Source: Anabaena sp. UHCC 0187 (GTDB lineage Bacteria > Cyanobacteriota > Cyanobacteriia > Cyanobacteriales > Nostocaceae). Taken from it: a stretch of DNA of 32,000 nucleotides. The number at the start of each line of letters is the position of its first letter. Position 1 is the first letter of the stretch. This document shows positions 8,411 through 31,995 of the stretch, piece by piece. Made by a program: the position numbers and the translations under genes. The notes under the pieces were generated by a model. The model had not been told where the DNA came from. It worked only from the letters and a program-made list of their open reading frames with translations, and searched no databases. Where the stretch lies: positions 114,519 through 146,518 of the forward strand of contig NZ_VILB01000006.1 of NCBI RefSeq assembly GCF_009712035.1, written 5' to 3'.

Positions 8411-8450
8411 CGCGCAAAGGCGCTAAGGAGCAAAGACGCAAAGGAAGAAA
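8411..8450. repeat. Dispersed short repeat unit (GCAAAGG-type triplet)
   Basis: cgcgcaaaggcgctaaggagcaaagacgcaaaggaagaaa is the reverse complement of the unit at 16017-16053. Confidence 0.7.
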
Positions 8451-10456: not shown

Positions 10457-10487
10457 GGGTTTTTGGGTTGGGTATTCTAGTTTTTTA

Positions 10488-10541
10488 AACGAACCACAGA
10501 GGCACAGAGGACACAGAGGAAGAGAGAAAGGAGATGTTTAT
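10488..10541. repeat. Dispersed short repeat unit (CACAGAGG-type triplet)
   Basis: aacgaaccacagaggcacagaggacacagaggaagagagaaaggagatgttta closely matches 22408-22460. Confidence 0.75.
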
Positions 10542-10617: not shown

Positions 10618-10664
10618 TAAATGAACCACGAAGGAGCGAAGAACACGAAGGAAGAAGGAAGAAG
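10618..10664. repeat. Dispersed short repeat unit (CGAAGGA-type triplet)
   Basis: aaatgaaccacgaaggagcgaagaacacgaaggaagaagg is the reverse complement of 20008-20045. Confidence 0.7.
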
Positions 10665-15412: not shown

Positions 15413-15874
15413 TTAGGAGAGGAATTTACTTAAATCAAATTCCTCCGTTTCTTCATGAATATTTATTTTTTGATACTTGAGAAATAATAAAATTCGTTCT
15501 GAATAATCTACAGCACCCCTTAACTCATTTTGTAATATTTCTAGTCCACCATTAGCATATTCTTCAAAAGTATGAATACGTTGATCATCAGATGTTTCAT
15601 CATCACCTAAAATTTTTATATCTTGTATTTCGGTGATAGCTAATAAATTAATCAGCATAGTGAAGCTACTGGGAAAATAATCCTGTCGTAAAGGGGATAA
15701 ATCTTTAGAACTTCCTTCTAGTGGAACTCGCTTTTTATACTTTACTCCCAATGATGCTGCAAATACCATGACTTCTACATAAGTCTGAAAAATCCCACTG
15801 GTATCTTTGGAAGCTACTAACGATTTCACCAACTCAGCCTTATCTTGAGCAATTTTGATTCTATTTGCAGCCAT
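15413..15874 (-). CDS. 153 aa protein, probable 'dnd system-associated protein 4' family member
   Basis: Clean ATG ORF downstream of the DndD-like ATPase on the same strand. The family name rests on my memory of a roughly 150 aa family found beside DGQHR and DndD-like genes, not on a motif I can verify here. Confidence 0.55.
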   Translation of the reverse strand: MAANRIKIAQDKAELVKSLVASKDTSGIFQTYVEVMVFAASLGVKYKKRVPLEGSSKDLSPLRQDYFPSSFTMLINLLAITEIQDIKILGDDETSDDQRIHTFEEYANGGLEILQNELRGAVDYSERILLFLKYQKINIHEETEEFDLSKFLS

Positions 15875-16016: not shown

Positions 16017-16053
16017 TCCTTTCTTCCTTTGCGTCTTTGCGCCTTTGCGTGAG
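16017..16053. repeat. Dispersed short repeat unit (GCAAAGG-type triplet, inverted orientation)
   Basis: cctttcttcctttgcgtctttgcgcctttgcgtgag is the reverse complement of 8411-8450. Confidence 0.7.
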
Positions 16054-16058
16054 ATATA

Positions 16059-18131
16059 TTAATTTCGTTCCACTTCAACAATTTCAGTATATTCAAAACC
16101 ATTCAAACTCTGTCGAACCAAAGCATATCTTTCCCTCCCCAACTCAATAAAATCCTGTTCACAATTAGGCTTAGAAGAATAATAAACCAAAACATATTCC
16201 TTCCCAACCTTATCAGCAATTTCCTCCTCAACCTCAACCCTCCACTGAGTCTTAGTCACCAACACAACCAACTGATTTGCTAACTTAGGAATAGTTCGCG
16301 CAATGTGACGACGAGAATTAACATCTAAACTCCCAAAAGGAGAATCCATAACAATCGGAAAAGTGCTACTTTCAGGAAGCATGATCATTTTCCGCTTCTC
16401 ACTCCAGTCGCGTACCTTATCAATAATACTAGCGATAAAAGATAAACTGAGAATTTGATTTTCTCCCGTAGAAGCTGCGACTGGTGCTTCAATTCCCGTC
16501 GTATTTTCCACCAAACTTAATTCATACTTTTCGCTAATTTTGGGAATGTATGGAGTAAAAGAGATATCCGAGAAAATTTCCTGTACCCGCTGTTCCAATT
16601 GCAGACGAAATTGATTTTCTTGACGGTTTTTAACTTCCGATAATCTATCAATTGCATCTTGAGTAGCATTAATGCGACGCTGTGCTAAAGATTGTTTTTC
16701 CTCATTTTGTTTTTGCTTAGAAATTTGTTTTATCAAAGCATCAATAGCTGTTTTCAGATGAGAAACTTCCTGTTGATTTGCACCTTGTTCTCGATTTAAG
16801 TCATCAATTTTGGCTTCAATTTCATCCAGACGTTTTTGTAAACTACTAATTTCCTCATTGGGATCTTTTCGGAGTTGTTCTTGAATAGTTGCTAACTCCA
16901 ATTCAACTTGATTGAGATTTTCTCTTAACTGTTGAATTCGTGCTTGTTCTCTGTCTGCTTCCTCCCAAAAAGCAACTGCTTGTTTATCAATTTCATCAAC
17001 TTGTGCGCTCATTCTAATTGCGGTTTCTTCCACAGTCGAAGAACCGGATTTTCTCATCAAATTCTTCACATGAAAATGAGTATGAGTTCCTTCCCTCAAA
17101 TCTGCACCACAAATACAACGTCCACTATTGAGTAAATCATTGACAAATTCCCGCGAAATTCCCGCAGTTAATTCACCTTTTTGTTTTAAATCTGTGAAGA
17201 TTTCCCGAAACTTAGCGGTAGTTTCCGACAATAGAACAGTATAACCCCGTGCGGAAATAGCCTTTTTCAAATTCTCCCGTGTTTTCTTCAACTCTTCCCG
17301 TAAACTATCTTTTTGCGATTCTAAACTTTGCTTTCTTTCCTGTAATTCCTTAACAGCACTCAATTCTCGTAACTTGTTACTAACTTCCTTTTTAAAAGTT
17401 TGCTGATATTCCAACTCTTGATTTATTTCTGTTTGACGTTTATTGATATTATCAATTTCCAGTTCTTGTTTTTCTTGCTGAGTCAATAACTGTTTAGTTT
17501 CCGCGTCACCAATATGTTTCAACTCAGTTTCTAAACTCTTTTTAGCATCTTTCAAGTGTTTAATCGAAAGTTCAATAACTTCCACACCCAAAAAAGTTCT
17601 AATTGCTTCAGAAATTTCCGCTTTATTATCAGAACGGACAATTTCTTCAATCCGTTCACCGTCAAAGAAAAAATATTGATGTAAACTTGCTGGTAAAATC
17701 TGAGTAATAATTTCCTCAGCTTGTTGAAGAGGAAAATACCATTTTCCATCATCTCCAGCAACTTGAATTTTCAACTGAGTTTTCCCAGCTTCAATCACAT
17801 CACTTTCATTTTTATAAACCCGACAACCACGAGTAGCACGATAACGATTACCTTCATGTTCCCAACCAACTTCCACCCAACATTCCACAGGTTGACTAGG
17901 TTGAGATTCTGCAATTGCGCGTTTATTTACTAACTGTTCAGTTGACGCAAAAGCCGCACTAAATTTTTCATATAAAACCCAAGTAAACGCATTCAAAATA
18001 CTAGTTTTACCTGCACCATTACTACCATAAATCATAGTAGTATTGCGAACATCTCCACCAGCCAAAGTTATTTCTGGTGTCTTCCCATAAAAAGAACGAA
18101 AATTACATAATTTAATAGAAGTTAGCTTCAT
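16059..18131 (-). CDS. SMC-like AAA ATPase, paralogue of DndD (690 aa)
   Basis: Walker A GSNGAGKTS (18000-18026), FFFDGERIEE, about 350 aa of coiled coil, signature STGENQILSL and Walker B/D-loop PIVMDSPFGSLD. Each motif parallels the DndD gene at 8468-10456. Confidence 0.8.
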   Translation of the reverse strand: MKLTSIKLCNFRSFYGKTPEITLAGGDVRNTTMIYGSNGAGKTSILNAFTWVLYEKFSAAFASTEQLVNKRAIAESQPSQPVECWVEVGWEHEGNRYRATRGCRVYKNESDVIEAGKTQLKIQVAGDDGKWYFPLQQAEEIITQILPASLHQYFFFDGERIEEIVRSDNKAEISEAIRTFLGVEVIELSIKHLKDAKKSLETELKHIGDAETKQLLTQQEKQELEIDNINKRQTEINQELEYQQTFKKEVSNKLRELSAVKELQERKQSLESQKDSLREELKKTRENLKKAISARGYTVLLSETTAKFREIFTDLKQKGELTAGISREFVNDLLNSGRCICGADLREGTHTHFHVKNLMRKSGSSTVEETAIRMSAQVDEIDKQAVAFWEEADREQARIQQLRENLNQVELELATIQEQLRKDPNEEISSLQKRLDEIEAKIDDLNREQGANQQEVSHLKTAIDALIKQISKQKQNEEKQSLAQRRINATQDAIDRLSEVKNRQENQFRLQLEQRVQEIFSDISFTPYIPKISEKYELSLVENTTGIEAPVAASTGENQILSLSFIASIIDKVRDWSEKRKMIMLPESSTFPIVMDSPFGSLDVNSRRHIARTIPKLANQLVVLVTKTQWRVEVEEEIADKVGKEYVLVYYSSKPNCEQDFIELGRERYALVRQSLNGFEYTEIVEVERN

Positions 18132-19754
18132 AAAAATACCTGGTATGTGGGAAAATCAGCGGCTTTCGCTCTGAAAGGGATGGTTCTACATGGCTCACCA
18201 GCCGCGACACGGGCGGTTTTAACCGAATTTAACTTTTTAACTTGAGTAACCATACCCATCTTTTTTGTGGATAGTTTTACAAGTTTTATAACTAATTCCT
18301 TGAACTAATCCATTTCTAGTTGAAATATTGAAACTTCCTGTCGTGCGAGTAGCAATTCTTCCAATATATTCGCCAACTTTTTTACCAGTTTTGACAACTG
18401 ATTTAACGATGTCTCCTGTTTGAAAACCAAAATGAAATTTAGTTCTAGAACAGTGACGATTTGGGAATCCGTATTTGTCTGTACGGCAAGATTGTCTAGT
18501 GCCGTGACCGTTAGCTGTAATTAGCAATGGCTTAACACCTTTGATATTGAGAATTGGAGTTAATTGACCAACACAAGCCGCATCAATCCAGTGAGTTTTC
18601 GCTAGTTTCTGTTGACTACGATTGAATTTAGTTAAACCTCCTGAACCCGTTTCTACAGGTAATCCAGTCGCTTTCAAAACTTCTAGTAATACAAAACGAG
18701 TTGTGTTTACTGCGGCTGCATCAGCCAGTGGTCTTTTAGCTTGTTTCAATATTTTTTCCAATTTTGATGGGTCTTTTTTGAGGAAATCTTTAATATCTTT
18801 CGTTCCTTTTTTTGTGTTACATTTTTCACAACTTAAAGCGAGGTTTGTAATTGAATTACTACCACCCTTGGCTTGTGGATGAATATGCTCTACTTGAAAA
18901 GGAACGTCTTTCACTCCACAGTAGGCACATTGCCTATCCCACTTTTCTAGTAAGTATTCTCTGGTTTCATAACCAGCTAAAGTTCCTTGTTGATATTCCC
19001 TACCTTGAATATCAGGATTAGCCATTAACTGCATATCAAAACGTACAAGTTCCTGACTGATAGCAACAACATGGGCAATTTTACTCAGCTTCTTAACCCA
19101 AGTTTTTATATTCTCAATCCGACTTTGCAGGCTTGGTGCTAACCAGCCTAAAGGGCGTGTTCTATTCAAAAATCTTGGTTTTCTGTAACGAGTAATTCTT
19201 GCCCGTCTAAAACGTCTTAATTGTCTTCTAGAAGTTAAAGCATCTCGAATTGCAAAACCTCTATGTTTTAATTCAGCAGCAAATACAACCTCACCACTAG
19301 CATCGTTAATTAATGCTATTCCTGTATGCTTTGCTCCGGGGTCAATCTTTAATCTTAGAGGTAATACGGTTTTAGAACATAATTCTTTCAGAATTAAAGT
19401 AAAAGGAAAACTTCTAAAAACTGCTGCTTTACCATTTCTTAATAGTTGTCTAGCTTGTGCTGAATGAATTGGATTTAATGGTCGTTTATCGGTATCAATT
19501 ACAAATACTTTGGACATAAAGTCCCTCCTTTCGGGTAATGTTAGCTTCGTCAATGTTTTAAGAGCTTTTTAGATTTGCAACACTGTTTCAGTGACTTTAA
19601 AACTGTTTAATTGCAAATGACAGAGCAGGGAACTAGCTACGCATTCCAGGGTGTCGTGACTCAAAAAACGTAGTCAGTGAAGACTTAGACTGGTCAATAC
19701 AGCTTGTTTCGATTTCTCTTACAAGCTCAGTCTCTTTAGGGCTGAGTTACTGAC
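18132..19754 (-). mobile_element. IscB-encoding IS200/IS605-like element with no tnpA (non-autonomous), 1623 bp
   Basis: Both ends are homologous to the mini-copy at 31550-31995, and homology stops at 18132 and 19754. Subterminal hairpins lie at 18214-18225 and 19726-19746. Removing 18132-19754 restores an ATGA stop/start overlap between the flanking genes. Confidence 0.8.
18237..19517 (-). CDS. iscB: IscB RNA-guided endonuclease (PLMP-like N-terminus, split RuvC with inserted HNH)
   Basis: MSKVFVIDTDKRPLNPIHSAQARQLLRNGKAAVFR is the PLMP-type domain. Catalytic motifs are IDPGAKHTGIAL (RuvC-I), AISQELVRFD (RuvC-II), CAYCG...VEHIHPQAKGGSNSITNLALSCEKCNTKKG (HNH) and THWIDAACVG (RuvC-III). The start is set at ATG 19517, preceded by AAGGAGGG at 19523-19530. 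Confidence 0.9.
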   Translation of the reverse strand: MSKVFVIDTDKRPLNPIHSAQARQLLRNGKAAVFRSFPFTLILKELCSKTVLPLRLKIDPGAKHTGIALINDASGEVVFAAELKHRGFAIRDALTSRRQLRRFRRARITRYRKPRFLNRTRPLGWLAPSLQSRIENIKTWVKKLSKIAHVVAISQELVRFDMQLMANPDIQGREYQQGTLAGYETREYLLEKWDRQCAYCGVKDVPFQVEHIHPQAKGGSNSITNLALSCEKCNTKKGTKDIKDFLKKDPSKLEKILKQAKRPLADAAAVNTTRFVLLEVLKATGLPVETGSGGLTKFNRSQQKLAKTHWIDAACVGQLTPILNIKGVKPLLITANGHGTRQSCRTDKYGFPNRHCSRTKFHFGFQTGDIVKSVVKTGKKVGEYIGRIATRTTGSFNISTRNGLVQGISYKTCKTIHKKDGYGYSS

Positions 19755-19770
19755 TGCACCGCTTCCTTCA
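19518..19770 (-). ncRNA. Putative IscB omega-RNA (scaffold 19518-19754 plus about 16 nt guide from flank 19755-19770)
   Basis: It sits immediately 5' of iscB on the same strand, as known for IscB loci. A core of about 100 nt is nearly identical to the second copy (31809-31896). Compensatory substitutions in the stems at 19701-19707/19721-19727 and 19726-19730/19742-19746 indicate conserved RNA structure. Confidence 0.65.
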
Positions 19771-19924
19771 CAATAGTGAGAATATCATCATTAATATGAC
19801 CCTTACTCTTTCTATCTAACCTGCTTTTCTCCAATCTCCATACCTTCTCAATAATTTGCTTTACCTCCGGTGGTGCGCTGGTAATTGGTTCTTGAACGTC
19901 CTCAATATTTGGTTCTGGTATCAT
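19736..19924 (-). CDS. Small protein (62 aa as read; 57 aa native plus 5 IS-encoded residues), first gene of the ATPase operon
   Basis: MIPEPNIEDVQEPITSAPPEVKQIIEKVWRLEKSRLDRKSKGHINDDILTIVKEAVQ, followed by SVTQP* read from the IscB element end. It may belong to the 'DNA modification system-associated small protein' family (from memory only). Confidence 0.55.
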   Translation of the reverse strand: MIPEPNIEDVQEPITSAPPEVKQIIEKVWRLEKSRLDRKSKGHINDDILTIVKEAVQSVTQP

Positions 19925-20007
19925 TTCAATACTGCAATAGATTTATTTTCTATTTTAACCAGTTCTGATACTATAGATATAACCCACGCAAAAATTCTCT
20001 AAAACCC

Positions 20008-20045
20008 TTCTTCCTTCGCTTCCTTCGTCCCTTCGTGGTTCATTT
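20008..20045. repeat. Dispersed short repeat unit (CGAAGGA-type triplet, inverted orientation)
   Basis: cttcttccttcgcttccttcgtcccttcgtggttcattt is the reverse complement of 10618-10664. Confidence 0.7.
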
Positions 20046-20315
20046 CTCCTAATTCCTATCTAAATACTAGTATAAATTTATATTTAAGTAAAAAAATTTC
20101 TTTTTTTAGGGTTCTGGGGATTGACTTGCGCCGCCAGGCGTGATATCCTGATAATGGGAATGTGTGCCTCTATAAAAATTTTATCCACACTCCATTATAT
20201 TAATATAGCACATCGCCGGCGATGTTGCCAACCAACTTCCGAAAAAAAAATTTCGCGCCAAACGTAAAACTGGGAAATTGTGTAGAATTGCTAGGTGTAA
20301 CGTTCAAGCTAGATA

Positions 20316-22310
20316 ATGGATTTTAATCTGCAAGCACCTTTTGTCCCCACCGGTGATCAACCACAAGCGATCGCACAACTTTCTGCTAGTATTCAAACAG
20401 GAAATCATTATCAAACATTACTGGGTGCGACAGGAACCGGTAAGACATTCTCCATAGCCGCAGTCATTGAAAAAGTCGGTAGACCTACCCTAGTATTAGC
20501 CCATAATAAGACATTAGCCGCCCAGTTGTGTAACGAACTGCGGGAGTTTTTTCCTAATAATGCAGTTGAGTATTTTGTCAGTTATTACGATTACTATCAA
20601 CCCGAAGCATATCTACCTGTTACTGATACTTATATAGAAAAAACATCAGCGATTAATGAAGAAATAGATATGTTACGACATTCGGCCACCCGTTCCTTAT
20701 TTGAACGCAAAGATGTGATTGTTGTCGCCTCAATTAGTTGTATTTATGGTTTAGGAATGCCGGCGGAATACCTGAAAGCCGCAATTCGGTTACAATTGGG
20801 AATGGAAATTGATCCGCGTCAAGTTTTACGGGATTTAACAGCAGTTCAATATACCCGCAATGACATCGAAATGGGGAGAGGAAAATTTCGAGTTCGGGGT
20901 GATGTTTTAGAAATTTCTCCTGCTTACGAAGATAGAATTATTAGAGTGGAATTCTTTGGAGATGAAATTGACGCAATTAGATATGTAGATCCTGTGAGTG
21001 GGGAAATTCTCCACAGTTTAGAAGCAGTAAATATCTACCCTGCGCGTCACTTTGTTACTCCTAAAGAAAGAGTAGAAATAGCTTGTGAAGATATAGCTAC
21101 AGAATTAAAACACCAACAACTAACATTAGAATCAATGGGTAAATTAGTTGAAGCACAACGCATTGACCAACGTACCCGTTATGATTTGGAAATGTTACGA
21201 GAAGTGGGATATTGTAACGGTGTAGAAAATTATTCTCGTCATTTAGCCGGAAGACAAGCAGGAGAACCACCAGAATGTTTAATTGATTATTTTCCCAAAG
21301 ATTGGTTATTAGTGATAGATGAATCTCATGTTACCGTTCCCCAAATTCGCGGAATGTATAACGGAGATCAAGCGAGAAAAAAAGTATTAATTGATCATGG
21401 TTTTCGGCTTCCCAGTGCGGCGGATAATCGTCCTTTACAAGCCGAGGAATTTTGGCAAAAAGTCAATCAATGTATTTTCGTTTCGGCGACTCCCGGAAAT
21501 TGGGAATTAGAAATTTCGGAAGAGAATATTATTGAACAAGTAATTAGACCGACGGGAGTAATTGACCCGGAAATATTTGTGCGTCCCACGGAAGGACAAA
21601 TTGATGATTTATTAGGAGAAATAAAAGATCGAGTTGACCGTCAAGAAAGAACTTTAGTGACAACATTAACTAAGCGTATGGCGGAAGATTTGACTGAATA
21701 TTTAGCAGAGAGGGGAATTAAAATCAGATATTTGCATTCAGAAATTAATTCTATTCAACGCATTGAAATTTTACAAGATTTGCGAAATGGTGTTTTTGAT
21801 GTGTTAGTCGGTGTGAACTTATTGCGGGAAGGTTTAGATTTACCTGAAGTTTCGTTAGTTGCAATTATGGACGCAGATAAGGAAGGATTTTTGCGAACTG
21901 AACGTTCTTTAATTCAAACTATCGGACGTGCGGCGCGTCATATTAGAGGAAAAGCAATTTTATATGCTGATAAAATGACAGGAAGTATGATTAAAGCTAT
22001 TGATGAAACTGATAGAAGAAGAGGAATTCAAGCGGCTTATAATAAACTACATGGAATTACACCGCAACCGATTATTAAAAAACAGAGTAATTCGATTTTA
22101 TCTTTTTTAGATGCTTCCCGACGCTTAAATGCAACTGATTTAAAAATGGTTGATGAACATTTAGATGAATTATCAGTGGAAGATATTCCAGAGTTAATTA
22201 CAATTTTAGAAAAACAGATGAAGGAAGCAGCGAAGAAGATGGAATTTGAGGAAGCTGGAAAATTGCGCGATCGCATTAAGCATTTGCGAGATAAAATGTT
22301 AGGACGTTAA
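20316..22310 (+). CDS. uvrB: Excinuclease ABC subunit B
   Basis: 664 aa. Motifs are [28 protein letters not shown], helicase motifs and the C-terminal UVR domain [15 protein letters not shown]. Confidence 0.95.
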
Positions 22311-22392: not shown

Positions 22393-22407
22393 TGATATTC
22401 TTTTTTT

Positions 22408-22460
22408 AACGAACCGCAGAGGCGCAGAGAACGCAGAGGAAGAGAGGAAGGAGATGTTTA
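22408..22460. repeat. Dispersed short repeat unit (CGCAGAGG-type triplet)
   Basis: aacgaaccgcagaggcgcagagaacgcagaggaagagaggaaggagatgttta closely matches 10488-10541. Confidence 0.75.
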
Positions 22461-30560: not shown

Positions 30561-30635
30561 GTCAGTTGTCAGTTGTTCGTTGTCAGTTGTTCGTTGAAAA
30601 TATTTTGTCCCTATCCCCTATTCCCTGTTCCCTAA
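30561..30635. repeat. Tandem heptamer arrays: GTCAGTT/GTTCGTT x5 and TCCCTNT x4
   Basis: Read directly: gtcagttgtcagttgttcgttgtcagttgttcgttg ... tccctatcccctattccctgttccctaa. Confidence 0.85.
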
Positions 30636-30642
30636 TTACAAA

Positions 30643-31068
30643 TTATTCTGTTTCAAATAACCATTTTTTGACTTTAACTAAGTTTTTCCAATCAGGGTTT
30701 CTGGTTAAACCATCTTCAATGCTGTTTTTAACTTCTTCTTGCCATTCTTCATTGACAAATATCAATTGTCGTGCAAAGTCAATGTGTTCCCGCAAACCTT
30801 TTTGACCTGTTTCTAGCATAGCTAAAGCTAGATTAATTCTAGCTTGTGGGTCTTGAGGATTGAGTTTCACAGCTTTATTAGCAGCGTTGAAAGCCAATTT
30901 ACCTTTGTTATCAAGAAGATATAACCAAGCGAGACAAACCCAGGCAGAACTGGCTTTAGGAGAGCGATCGCATACTTCTTTAAATACAGGAATCAGAGAT
31001 TCTACAGATTCTCCAGCTTTATAGCGTTCTAAACCTGTATCAAATAGGGAATCAACGGTATTAGTCAT
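30643..31068 (-). CDS. TPR-repeat protein
   Basis: 141 aa. AWVCLAWLYLLDNKGKLAFNAANKAVKLNPQDPQARINLALAML is a TPR-type consensus. Confidence 0.7.
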   Translation of the reverse strand: MTNTVDSLFDTGLERYKAGESVESLIPVFKEVCDRSPKASSAWVCLAWLYLLDNKGKLAFNAANKAVKLNPQDPQARINLALAMLETGQKGLREHIDFARQLIFVNEEWQEEVKNSIEDGLTRNPDWKNLVKVKKWLFETE

Positions 31069-31075
31069 TTGTTCT

Positions 31076-31185
31076 TAGTCAGTTGTTAGTTGTCAGTTGT
31101 CAGTTGTCAGTTGTTAGTTGTCAGTTGTTATGGAAAAATTCTTTCTCCCTGCTTTCTGACTCCTGACTCCTGACTCCTGACTCCT
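31076..31185. repeat. Tandem heptamer arrays: TTGTCAG/TTGTTAG x8 and CTGACTC x4
   Basis: Read directly: tagtcagttgttagttgtcagttgtcagttgtcagttgttagttgtcagttgttat ... ctgactcctgactcctgactcctgactcc. Confidence 0.85.
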
Positions 31186-31192
31186 CACAATA

Positions 31193-31549
31193 TTACACCC
31201 CGAAAGACTTACCGCAACCACAAGTTTGGGCAGCATTGGGGTTAGTAAATTGGAAACCACCACCAATCATGGCATCACTATAATCGAGCATTAAGCCGTA
31301 AAGGTAAAGGAGACTTTTACGATCGCTGATAATTTTGAAGCCATCATAATCAAACACCTCATCATCAGGGGTAATCTTGCTGACATCCTCAAAATCCATC
31401 ATGTAAGACATTCCCGAACAACCACCTTGTCTGACTCCCACCCGTAAGCATAAATCTTGTCCTTGCTTGTCTTGAAGAGACTTAACCTGACGCAATGCAG
31501 ATTCAGATAACAGAATTCCGCGTTGTTGAGTTTGAGTTGCTTGTGTCAT
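31193..31549 (-). CDS. A-type Fe-S cluster assembly/carrier protein (HesB/IscA/SufA family)
   Basis: 118 aa. [14 protein letters not shown] and the C-terminal [16 protein letters not shown] match the conserved Cys triad pattern. Confidence 0.9.
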
Positions 31550-31995
31550 AAGAATATCCGGTAAGTGGGAAACTCAGCGGCTTTAGCCCTGAGAGGGAAA
31601 CGGCACGAGCGGTTAAAACCGCCTTGAATATTTTTTCATTACCGCCTTGGAGTTGGTAAATTCGGTGTACTTTTGTAATGTACTTTCAACGGGACAATTA
31701 CCGATTCAAAATTCCCAACTCTGTACGCATAATGAATGTTTTGCTCCAAAGAGCCTCCCATTTCTGGGGTAATGTTAGCTTCGACCAGTTATCAGAGCTT
31801 GTTAAACTTGCAACACTGTTTCAGTGACCTTAAAACTGTTTAATTGCAAATGACAGAGCAGGGAACTAGCTACGCATTCCGGGGTGTCGTGACTCAAATA
31901 ACGGCTACCCTTCGACTATGCTCAGGGTGGTCTGGTCAGCACGGCTTGCTTGATTACTCTTGCAAGCCCAGTCCCTTTAGGGCTGGGTTACTGAC
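31550..31995 (-). mobile_element. Internally deleted (MITE-like) derivative of the IscB element, 446 bp
   Basis: 31550-31625 aligns with 18132-18228 and 31762-31995 aligns with 19531-19754. Only degenerate remnants of the iscB 5' and 3' ends remain between them (for example cgtacaga..aatcgg versus the RTDKYGFPNR codons). Confidence 0.8.
31762..31995 (-). ncRNA. Orphan omega-RNA-like sequence with no adjacent iscB
   Basis: The core ttgcaacactgtttcagtgac.ttaaaactgtttaattgcaaatgacagagcagggaactagctacgcattcc.gggtgtcgtgactcaaa is near-identical to 19576-19664. The terminal stems are kept through compensatory changes. Confidence 0.55.

What the first reader, a model, noticed from the sequence alone, without database searches (positions are those of the whole stretch)
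18128..19770. IscB element inserted exactly into the ATGA stop/start overlap of the defence operon; the pre-insertion site can be reconstructed
Homology between the two element copies ends at 18132 and 19754. Joining the flanks on the minus strand gives ...GAA GCG GTG CA|A TGA AGC TAA CT... The small gene then ends ...K E A V Q TGA, and its TGA shares ATGA with the ATG of the 690 aa ATPase. That is a classic translationally coupled junction. With the element present, the small protein instead reads five IS-encoded residues (SVTQP) to a TAA at 19736. The ATPase ATG is now preceded by 1.6 kb of foreign DNA. iscB has the same orientation as the operon, so read-through could still express the ATPase and the 153 aa gene, but coupling and stoichiometry are probably altered. 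This is a selfish RNA-guided nuclease element sitting inside an anti-MGE system.
Basis: partly seen in the sequence, partly recalled or inferred. Interest (0 to 1): 0.7.

Follow-up and report, generated by a model that had tools for sequence, protein, structure and literature searches.

The report
IscB transposon in an operon's ATGA junction
A 1.6-kb selfish transposon carrying an RNA-guided nuclease (IscB) sits exactly in the four-base stop/start overlap between two genes of a phosphorothioation-linked defence-type operon in a Nostocales cyanobacterium; this element family habitually lands on ATGA start codons, so it is a clean but ordinary member of a known kind.

Summary
A 1,623-bp element (window 19754..18132, minus strand) carries a full-length HEARO/omega-RNA and an intact 426-aa iscB. 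It lies between a 57-aa small gene and a 690-aa ATPase.

All 80 orthologous loci from other Nostocales species are uninterrupted. There is no target duplication.

Three corrections:
- Homology between the two copies runs through the shared ATGA to 18128, not 18132. ATGA is the family's target/TAM, not element sequence.
- The second copy (31995..31550) is a 446-bp iscB-less derivative. It lies between the native ribosome-binding site and the ATG of an iscA-like gene, shown by 10 empty sites.
- The operon is a small protein, a CxC/PbeC-like ABC ATPase and dnd_assoc_4, next to dndB-like genes and dndCDE. No PbeA nuclease is present, and a defence role is inferred from homology only.

In related elements the target ATG opens a long ORF at 26/46 sites, against 16% of background ATGA. 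These include hemC, hisC, trpE and thiL starts and a plasmid parA|parB overlap. Such insertions are therefore probably not strongly polar.

The N|ATGA target of IscB transposons was published in 2016. This is a new member of a known kind.

The parts
19736..19924 (-). Small gene as it now reads (62 aa): the 57 native residues plus five element-encoded residues, SVTQP, then TAA. It occupies the position of PbeB, the 'small protein' of CxC-ATPase systems.
   Evidence: ORF list. A 57-aa orthologue ending at the ATGA overlap is present in 80/80 related loci. No Pfam, PADLOC or NCBIfam family hit.
19755..19770 (-). Sixteen nt of host flank (TGAAGGAAGCGGTGCA) immediately 5' of the omega-RNA scaffold. 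This is the inferred natural guide. Together with ATGA it matches the empty allele.
   Evidence: Sequence. The position of the guide follows from published IscB biology (Meers 2023 preprint). The 16-nt length is from memory of Altae-Tran 2021.
18132..19754 (-). Complete non-autonomous IscB (ISC-type, IS200/IS605 superfamily) element, 1,623 bp, with a 5'-GTCA terminus and no target-site duplication.
   Evidence: Boundaries fixed by 80 empty orthologous sites. An identical copy is present in L081.
19535..19754 (-). omega-RNA scaffold (HEARO RNA).
   Evidence: Rfam RF02033, 154.1 bits (gathering score 83), model positions 1-211 of 211.
18237..19517 (-). iscB, 426 aa. All catalytic motifs are present: D59 (IDPG), E156, HNH C197/C200-H211-C230/C233, and H309/D312.
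   Evidence: Pfam RRXRR plus HNH. NCBIfam guided_IscB 439 bits. Solved IscB structures match at E = 1e-37 to 1e-28. Motif positions.
18132..18236 (-). Non-coding 3' end of the element. In transposase terms this is the left end, which abuts the target. It ends ...CCCACATACCAGGTATTTTT.
   Evidence: Homologous to the 3' end of copy B and of related elements. Hairpin prediction is not significant.
18128..18131 (-). ATGA: the host target site and inferred TAM. It is the ATPase start codon, and before insertion it also held the TGA stop of the small gene.
   Evidence: Retained as a single copy in the empty sites. (A/G)TG(A/G) follows all 54 hand-placed ends of related elements; an automated homology-end analysis puts the end at the same place for most of them.
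16059..18131 (-). CxC-type ABC ATPase (PbeC-like, a paralogue of DndD), 690 aa, intact.
   Evidence: PADLOC PbeC PDLC02753, 1150 bits, positions 1-648 of 648. CxC at residues 339-341 and Walker A at 36-43. 97% identical over residues 1-689 to orthologues.
15413..15874 (-). dnd_assoc_4 protein, 153 aa, in the position of PbeD (the DndE cognate).
   Evidence: NCBIfam TIGR04062, 183.7 bits against a cut-off of 74. No PADLOC hit. No BLASTP similarity to the window's DndE.
18128..18259 (-). A 43-codon ORF inside the element's 3' end whose TGA is the TGA of the target ATGA. It would recreate a stop/start overlap with the ATPase. This is a weak lead only.
   Evidence: ORF list. Also called as a gene in L081. 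Across the family, the frame ending at the target TGA is open for a median of 29 codons, against 15 and 12 in the other frames.
20202..20231 (-). Promoter-like site (TTGGCA-18-TATATT with an extended TG) upstream of the small gene. It is a candidate source of the transcript that would carry the guide, omega-RNA, iscB and the ATPase.
   Evidence: Consensus scan only. The number of promoter-like sites in the region is not above the shuffled expectation.
31550..31995 (-). Second copy: a 446-bp internally deleted derivative with omega-RNA, about ten degenerate iscB codons and the 3' end, but no iscB.
   Evidence: Rfam HEARO 141.8 bits at 31995..31769. The 3' end aligns to 18180..18128. Ten empty sites read ...AGGAGTTAAAAATTT|ATGACC.
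31193..31549 (-). iscA/HesB-type Fe-S assembly gene. Its ATG-A is the target of copy B, so the element separates it from its native AGGAG ribosome-binding site.
   Evidence: NCBIfam TIGR00049, 122 bits. Empty-site comparison.

Best explanation
What it is. The feature is a recent insertion of a non-autonomous IscB/omega-RNA transposon (ISC type, IS200/IS605 superfamily) into the 4-nt ATGA where the TGA stop of a 57-aa small gene overlaps the ATG of a CxC/PbeC-like ABC ATPase.

Shown:
- The element is 1,623 bp, starts with 5'-GTCA and makes no target duplication.
- It lies between the A that precedes ATGA and the ATGA itself.
- iscB and the omega-RNA look intact.
- The small protein gains five residues (SVTQP).
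- The ATPase and dnd_assoc_4 ORFs are untouched.
- The ATPase's native upstream sequence (AAGGAAGCGGTGCA) now lies 1.6 kb away.

Inferred from published biology of the family:
- A Y1 TnpA transposase encoded elsewhere moved the element as single-stranded DNA and joined its left end 3' of 5'-(T)TCAT-3' on the window's + strand.
- The omega-RNA is read through from the host promoter, so its 5' guide is the last 16 nt of the small gene.
- IscB with this guide and TAM ATGA recognises only the empty allele. Cutting it forces repair from an occupied chromosome copy, which keeps or spreads the element.

Inferred here:
- The stop/start ATGA is a safe and hard-to-mutate landing site.
- Because relatives of this element sit directly before essential start codons, transcription and translation probably continue into the ATPase. 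The module is most likely still expressed, although the native stop/start coupling to the small protein is lost.
For: Identity of the element.

Exact boundaries and pre-insertion sequence: 80 of 80 empty orthologous sites. The same insertion is present in an independent assembly.

Target and TAM:
- Both window copies and 52 related elements are followed by (A/G)TG(A/G). The 52 ends were placed by hand; an automated homology-end analysis puts the end at the same point for most of them.
- Copy B has ten empty sites of its own.
- Kapitonov 2016 describes N|ATGA with 5'-GTCA termini and no duplication.
- Meers 2023 places the omega-RNA at the right end, gives the GstIscB TAM as TTCAT (ATGAA on the iscB strand), and reports an orientation bias towards the upstream gene.

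Tolerance of such sites:
- The target ATG opens an ORF of at least 90 codons at 26 of 46 sites, against 65 of 408 background ATGA (Fisher p = 6e-9).
- Six of 40 reconstructed sites are stop/start overlaps.
- Downstream ORFs align from profile position 1 to the hemC, hisC and thiL models, and from position 10 to an anthranilate synthase component I (trpE) model.
- A related element sits in the parA|parB ATGA overlap of Trichormus variabilis plasmid C.
- No terminator-like site is predicted on the minus strand inside the element.
Against: - No TnpA is present in the window, so current mobility is unproven.
- No empty allele was found within the same species. The nearest empty sites are about 93% identical at nucleotide level, so neither polymorphism nor excision is documented.
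- The 3' end of this particular copy has only a weak AGG where many relatives have GGAGG or GAGG, so translation of the ATPase could be reduced.
- Predicted hairpins at the ends are not better than shuffled sequence.
- Expression, guide usage and cleavage are all untested.
Confidence: 0.85

Rival explanations
1. The insertion is polar and disables the module. The ATPase and dnd_assoc_4 lose their promoter-proximal position, their native ribosome-binding context and translational coupling. The CxC-ATPase system would then be silenced or mis-dosed, and the insertion would be a tolerated loss of function or a step towards gene decay.
For: The native SD-like AAGGAAG and the overlapping stop, conserved in 80 of 80 orthologues, are displaced by 1.6 kb. 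This copy's 3' end has only AGG before the ATG. The insertion is confined to one lineage, as expected for a young and possibly deleterious event.
Against: Both downstream ORFs are intact and 97% identical to orthologues. No terminator-like site is predicted in the element. Relatives sit immediately upstream of hemC, hisC, trpE and thiL and within parA|parB, which would not be viable if such insertions were strongly polar. In L002, three unrelated genes separate the ATPase from dnd_assoc_4, so the module tolerates rearrangement.
Confidence: 0.25
2. The element is adapted to start codons. Its TAM equals ATG-A, and its 3' end supplies a ribosome-binding site, and perhaps a short ORF ending on the target TGA, so that the downstream host gene stays expressed. 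On this view the insertion here is functionally silent by design.
For: An SD-like core (GGAG, GAGG or AGGA) lies 4-17 nt before the target ATG in 27 of 54 ends, against 0-13 at other offsets. Of the ends with this core, 18 of 27 lie at ORF starts, against 10 of 27 without it. The frame ending on the target TGA is open for a median of 29 codons, against 15 and 12 in the other frames. There is strong enrichment at genuine start codons.
Against: The GGAGG lies within a hairpin-forming end that the transposase may constrain for its own reasons. The enrichment could come from purifying selection alone. The sites are phylogenetically non-independent and their ends were placed by hand. The two window copies have the weakest SD-like sequences. 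Nothing was tested experimentally.
Confidence: 0.4
3. The arrangement is ancestral or an assembly artefact rather than an insertion.
For: None found. Only the absence of a same-species empty allele leaves any room for it.
Against: Eighty of 80 related species have the uninterrupted junction. The element has complete transposon anatomy and relatives at many unrelated sites. Two independent assemblies share the junctions.
Confidence: 0.01

Closest known systems
ISC transposons with an N|ATGA target (ISC1-1_MA of Microcystis aeruginosa; ISC2-1_HM and ISC2-1_MS), Kapitonov et al. 2016, PMC4810608
   Same: Non-autonomous, about 1.3-1.7 kb, and encodes only IscB. It has a 5'-GT(CA) terminus, is inserted immediately upstream of ATGA, and makes no target-site duplication. 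Boundaries were proven the same way, by empty sites in related genomes (compared).
   Different: A different host (a Nostocales cyanobacterium of the Dolichospermum/Anabaena group) and a different sequence. That paper does not use the term 'start codon' (0 occurrences on a term search).
GstIscB elements of Geobacillus stearothermophilus (Meers et al. 2023, bioRxiv 10.1101/2023.03.14.532601)
   Same: [quoted passage not shown] The TAM TTCAT next to the left end equals ATGAA on the iscB strand, which is exactly the sequence here (ATGAA at 18131..18127). Those authors also report an orientation bias towards the upstream gene. Their retention model, in which the donor joint is cut, applies directly.
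   Different: Nothing was tested experimentally here, and no TnpA partner was identified. The host is probably polyploid (general knowledge of cyanobacteria, not tested here), which would favour copy-back repair. That last point is inference.
HEARO RNA (Rfam RF02033; Weinberg et al. 2009)
   Same: Both window copies are full-length matches at 154 and 142 bits.
   Different: From memory, that paper noted insertion next to ATGA or GTGA. It is not held in the library and could not be checked.
PbeABCD / CxC ABC-ATPase-centred systems (Xiong 2019, PMC6459918; reappraisal in NAR 2024, PMC10853773)
   Same: A small protein followed by a CxC ABC ATPase followed by a small partner protein, lying next to a canonical dnd modification cluster.
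   Different: No PbeA (HKD nuclease fused to an SF2 helicase) is present in the 32-kb window. Two DGQHR/DndB-like genes lie convergent to the module instead. The small protein and the 153-aa protein hit no PADLOC Pbe model.

Membership tests
IscB/omega-RNA (OMEGA) element, ISC group of the IS200/IS605 superfamily | An IscB protein: N-terminal RRXRR/PLMP region and a RuvC fold interrupted by an HNH domain | tested here: met
   Pfam RRXRR 229 bits plus HNH 49 bits. NCBIfam guided_IscB 439 bits against a cut-off of 175. Solved IscB structures match at E = 1e-37 to 1e-28. Catalytic motifs are present.
IscB/omega-RNA (OMEGA) element, ISC group of the IS200/IS605 superfamily | An omega-RNA (HEARO) directly upstream of iscB on the same strand, beginning at the element's end | tested here: met
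   RF02033, 154 bits, model positions 1-211. Model position 1 falls on 19754, the first inserted base.
IscB/omega-RNA (OMEGA) element, ISC group of the IS200/IS605 superfamily | Site-specific insertion next to a 4-5-nt motif without target-site duplication | tested here: met
   Eighty empty sites for copy A and ten for copy B show insertion at N|ATGA with no duplication. Family-wide, the ends are followed by (A/G)TG(A/G).
IscB/omega-RNA (OMEGA) element, ISC group of the IS200/IS605 superfamily | Subterminal imperfect hairpins at both ends, the substrates of the Y1 transposase | tested here: inconclusive
   Stem-loops are predicted on the + strand at both ends, but their energies are not better than shuffles (z = -0.8 and -1.3).
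IscB/omega-RNA (OMEGA) element, ISC group of the IS200/IS605 superfamily | Mobilisation by a Y1 (HUH) TnpA transposase, in cis or in trans | not testable with these tools
   No Y1_Tnp ORF is present in the window. The rest of the genome is not available. Meers 2023 reports that only about 1.5% of iscB genes have a tnpA nearby.
IscB/omega-RNA (OMEGA) element, ISC group of the IS200/IS605 superfamily | RNA-guided, TAM-dependent DNA cleavage of the empty site | not testable with these tools
   Only the sequence logic could be checked. The flank TGAAGGAAGCGGTGCA plus ATGA is present in the empty alleles of seven related species.
PbeABCD / CxC ABC-ATPase-centred system | A PbeC-type ABC ATPase with a CxC zinc-hook motif in the coiled-coil | tested here: met
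   PADLOC PbeC, 1150 bits, full length. C339-I-C341 lies at mid-length and Walker A at residues 36-43. It scores below the DndD equivalog cut-off (162 bits against 246).
PbeABCD / CxC ABC-ATPase-centred system | A cognate DndE-like partner (PbeD) immediately downstream | tested here: inconclusive
   The 153-aa gene is NCBIfam dnd_assoc_4 at 184 bits. It hits no PADLOC model and shows no BLASTP similarity to the window's DndE. The fold was not examined.
PbeABCD / CxC ABC-ATPase-centred system | A small, largely disordered protein (PbeB) encoded just upstream of the ATPase | tested here: inconclusive
   A 57-aa gene, conserved in 80 of 80 loci, lies in the right position. It hits no family model in Pfam, PADLOC or NCBIfam. 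Disorder was not computed.
PbeABCD / CxC ABC-ATPase-centred system | PbeA: an HKD endonuclease fused to an SF2 helicase | tested here: not met
   No such protein is among the ORFs scanned: 21 of the 37 ORFs of at least 80 aa, covering most of the long non-nested ones. The neighbours are uvrB on one side and two DGQHR/DndB-like genes on the other.

The most novel reading that the evidence does not exclude
This clade of IscB elements may be specialised to live on start codons and ATGA gene junctions. Its TAM/target is ATG-A. Its outward-facing 3' end often carries a Shine-Dalgarno-like GGAGG 5-9 nt before that ATG. In some members an ORF terminates on the target TGA. Together these would let the element sit in front of essential genes (hemC, hisC, trpE, thiL) and inside operons (parA|parB, and this small-protein|ATPase pair) without silencing them. 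The host, meanwhile, cannot mutate the target to escape the guide RNA. If so, the element would be the transposon equivalent of a self-splicing intron's harmless insertion. None of the papers I could read mentions this.
Probability: 0.35. Interest if true: 0.6.

Novelty: new member of a known kind. Interest (0 to 1): 0.4.

Why it matters
As a single event it is a textbook-clean natural example. Both boundaries, the empty site, the inferred guide and the TAM can all be read directly from sequence. It also shows a selfish RNA-guided nuclease element embedded in a phosphorothioation-associated, defence-type module.

Its wider value is as an entry point to a family-level pattern. ATGA-targeting IscB elements are found far more often than chance exactly at start codons and stop/start overlaps, including in front of essential genes. 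That makes two questions directly testable:
- Do these elements carry signals that preserve downstream expression?
- Does using a start codon as the TAM protect the element from target-site escape?

It also warns annotators. Such insertions add a short element-encoded tail to the upstream protein and create a false intergenic gap inside an operon.

Tried and rejected
1. Element identity as evidence of homing. The element is 100% identical between the window and L081, while the flanks differ at 30 positions. This looked like evidence for recent homing. However, all 30 mismatches cluster in a 750-nt patch of uvrB (20843..21590), and everything else is identical. No inference can be drawn.

2. 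Same-species empty allele. Exact-sequence look-ups of the ATPase, the 153-aa protein and UvrB found nothing on record. The IscB look-up returned only L081. The 80 orthologous loci contain no related element.

3. Short-query blastn to map the ends of related elements was too insensitive. It was replaced by all-against-all homology ends, hand curation and Rfam.

4. DNA folding of the ends gave no significant hairpins.

5. Classifying the small protein and the 153-aa protein as PbeB and PbeD by profile search gave no PADLOC or Pfam hits. BLASTP of the 153-aa protein against DndE found nothing.

6. Weinberg 2009, the original HEARO paper, is not held. The 2010 paper does not mention HEARO.

7. The 43-codon ORF ending on the target TGA was considered as a restored coupling device. 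The family-wide support is weak, so it is kept only as a lead.

8. The promoter and terminator scan found nothing above the shuffled expectation.

Full report
**1. What is in the sequence**

On the minus strand the region reads as follows:
- a small ORF (19924..19736);
- a HEARO RNA (19754..19535; Rfam RF02033, 154 bits against a gathering score of 83, model positions 1-211 of 211);
- an ORF from ATG 19517 to 18237 (426 aa);
- 105 nt of non-coding DNA;
- the ATG of a 690-aa ORF at 18131.

The 426-aa protein is an IscB. It hits Pfam RRXRR at 229 bits plus HNH and NCBIfam equivalog guided_IscB at 439 bits against a cut-off of 175. Solved IscB structures match at E = 1e-37 to 1e-28. The motifs D59 (IDPG), E156, CxxC/H211/CxxC and H309/D312 are all present. 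HEARO is the omega-RNA of IscB (Meers et al. 2023 preprint).

**2. The boundaries**

A scan of one genome per species found 80 loci encoding orthologues of the ATPase (76-97% identity), all in Nostocales. Every one is uninterrupted at this point.

The 45 nt before the ATG and the 24 nt after it show that all 80 carry ATGA. Seven loci (L001, L002, L003, L005, L006, L008, L010) have the same final 16 nt as the window's left flank. Five of them are identical over all 45 nt. The joined window flanks align colinearly across the junction.

The empty site reads GTGC-A-A-TGA, and the occupied site reads GTGC-A-[GTCAG...TTTTT]-A-TGA. The insert is therefore unambiguously 19754..18132, 1,623 bp, with no duplication.

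The small gene is 57 aa in 78 of 80 loci and its TGA overlaps the ATPase ATG in 80 of 80. In the window it keeps Gln57 (CAA becomes CAG) and adds SVTQP before a TAA at 19738..19736.

The same insertion is present in an independent assembly, GCA_030730045.1 (L081, 99.44% identical over 5.4 kb).

**3.

First, homology between the two window copies does not stop at 18132. It continues through TTATGA to 18128, matching 31546, because both copies are followed by ATGA. ATGA is host sequence: the target.

Second, the other copy (31995..31550) is a 446-bp derivative. It has a full omega-RNA (142 bits), about ten degenerate iscB codons and the 3' end, but no iscB. Ten contigs that encode the identical downstream IscA/HesB-type protein have the empty site ...CAGGAGTTAAAAATTT|ATGACC. 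The window's last five bases, AATTT, are that left flank. Copy B therefore sits precisely between the native AGGAG and the start codon of that gene.

**4. The family's habit**

Eighty metagenomic loci encoding IscB relatives (52-85% identity) were fetched.
- All-against-all comparison of the DNA after iscB shows homology ending right after (A/G)TGA at most sites.
- The hand-placed ends of 54 independent sites give A46/G8, T54, G54, A49/G5.
- The target ATG opens an ORF of at least 90 codons at 26 of 46 evaluable sites, against 65 of 408 (16%) background ATGA in the same host flanks (Fisher p = 6e-9).
- With the 5' ends mapped by Rfam, 40 empty sites were reconstructed: 38 from these loci, plus window copy A and L172. 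Six are ATGA stop/start overlaps, 14 are plain start codons, two are stop codons only, and 18 are other.
- Ten downstream ORFs were scanned against NCBIfam. Their first residues align with profile position 1 of full-length models for hemC, hisC and thiL, an Mrp antiporter subunit and an OmpR-type regulator, and with position 10 of an anthranilate synthase (trpE) model.
- In Trichormus variabilis ATCC 29413 plasmid C, a related element lies in the parA|parB ATGA overlap and gives ParA the tail SVTQGQSH.
- PGAP-annotated starts agree for that parB and for a gene on Nostoc sp. C052 plasmid pC052_F.

**5. What is already known**

Kapitonov et al. 2016 described ISC transposons of cyanobacteria and proteobacteria with 5'-GTCA termini. 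These insert at N|ATGA without duplication, shown by the same empty-site logic.

Meers et al. 2023 showed three relevant things:
- the omega-RNA end is the transposon's right end;
- the TAM abuts the left end and is shared by the transposase and the nuclease (TTCAT for GstIscB, which is ATGAA on the iscB strand, as here);
- iscB elements are biased towards the orientation of the upstream gene.

None of the papers I could read mentions start codons or operon junctions. The original HEARO paper is not held.

**6. The host operon**

The ATPase is PADLOC PbeC (1150 bits, full length). It has a CxC motif at residues 339-341 and scores below the DndD equivalog cut-off. The 153-aa gene downstream is NCBIfam dnd_assoc_4 (184 bits).

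The NAR 2024 reappraisal equates PbeC with the CxC ABC ATPase, PbeB with a small protein predicted to be a negative regulator, PbeD with a DndE cognate, and PbeA with an HKD nuclease fused to a helicase.

In this window the small-gene/ATPase/dnd_assoc_4 unit lies convergent to two DGQHR/DndB-like genes and next to dndC, dndD and dndE. No PbeA is present. A defence role is therefore an inference from homology and context.

**7. Mechanism**

Shown: the anatomy, the insertion point and the consequences for the ORFs.

Inferred from the family: TnpA-mediated single-strand insertion 3' of TCAT on the + strand; read-through transcription that supplies the guide TGAAGGAAGCGGTGCA; and cleavage of empty alleles followed by copy-back repair.

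Inferred here: the junction is a safe harbour. Neither ORF is broken, and the host cannot easily mutate ATGA. Because relatives sit before essential genes, the insertion is probably not strongly polar. No terminator-like site is predicted in the element.

The polar rival remains possible (confidence about 0.25). This copy's 3' end has only AGG where many relatives have GGAGG, and the native SD-like AAGGAAG has been moved away.

**8. Verdict**

This is a new member of a known kind. Interest is moderate. The single event is ordinary for this family. The family-wide preference for start codons and stop/start overlaps, and the possible donation of expression signals, is the part worth following up.

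Noticed in passing
window 31550-31995 (-) and 31193-31549 (-): A 446-bp iscB-less derivative of the same element family (omega-RNA plus both ends) sits exactly between the native AGGAG ribosome-binding site and the ATG of an iscA/HesB-type gene. Ten related contigs show the empty site.
   Followed up: yes
L082-L161 (metagenome loci), L172, L175: Related IscB elements lie immediately upstream of genuine start codons far more often than chance (26/46 sites against 16% of background ATGA). These include hemC, hisC, trpE and thiL, and six of 40 reconstructed sites are ATGA stop/start overlaps. About half of the 3' ends carry a GGAGG-like motif 4-17 nt before that ATG.
   Followed up: partly
window 18128-18259 (-): A 43-codon ORF starts inside the last codons of iscB and ends on the TGA of the target ATGA, recreating a stop/start overlap with the ATPase. 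A gene caller also predicted it in L081. Family-wide, this frame tends to be open for longer than the other two.
   Followed up: partly
L172 (Trichormus variabilis ATCC 29413 plasmid C, NC_007412.1 149.5-151.2 kb): A related iscB element is inserted in the ATGA overlap between parA and parB of a conjugative plasmid. ParA is annotated with an element-encoded tail, SVTQGQSH.
   Followed up: yes
L002 6116-9315 (Anabaena sp. UHCC 0204); also L004-L006, L009: In several related species the ATPase and the dnd_assoc_4 gene are separated by 0.2-3.3 kb. In L002 the gap holds two ORFs of about 190-210 aa that I read by eye as Uma2-type endonucleases and a 640-aa ORF that looks like an SLH-domain protein (none profile-searched). 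The spacer in this window is 184 nt, so this intergenic spot is a variable site.
   Followed up: partly
window 20843-21590 (uvrB) compared with L081: All 30 differences between the window and the near-identical assembly GCA_030730045.1 fall in one 750-nt patch of uvrB. This looks like a recombination tract.
   Followed up: partly
window 10481-10540 / 22401-22460; 10619-10658 / 20006-20045; 8421-8450 / 16020-16049: Short dispersed repeats are built from three or so 7-8-nt units (CACAGAGG, CGAAGGA, GCAAAGA types). They lie in the intergenic gaps of the dnd cluster, after the ATPase and upstream of the small gene. They resemble small cyanobacterial repeat elements.
   Followed up: no
window 30561-30626 and 31057-31150: Tandem heptamer repeats (GTCAGTT/GTTGTCA) flank the TPR gene next to copy B.
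   Followed up: no
L112 428-665 and 1231-1481: Two full-length HEARO RNAs lie about 800 nt apart upstream of one iscB gene. This may be a solo omega-RNA element adjacent to a complete one.
   Followed up: no
plasmid collection: Related iscB elements occur on 32 cyanobacterial plasmids, 17 of them predicted to be conjugative. This is a plausible route for spread between strains.
   Followed up: no
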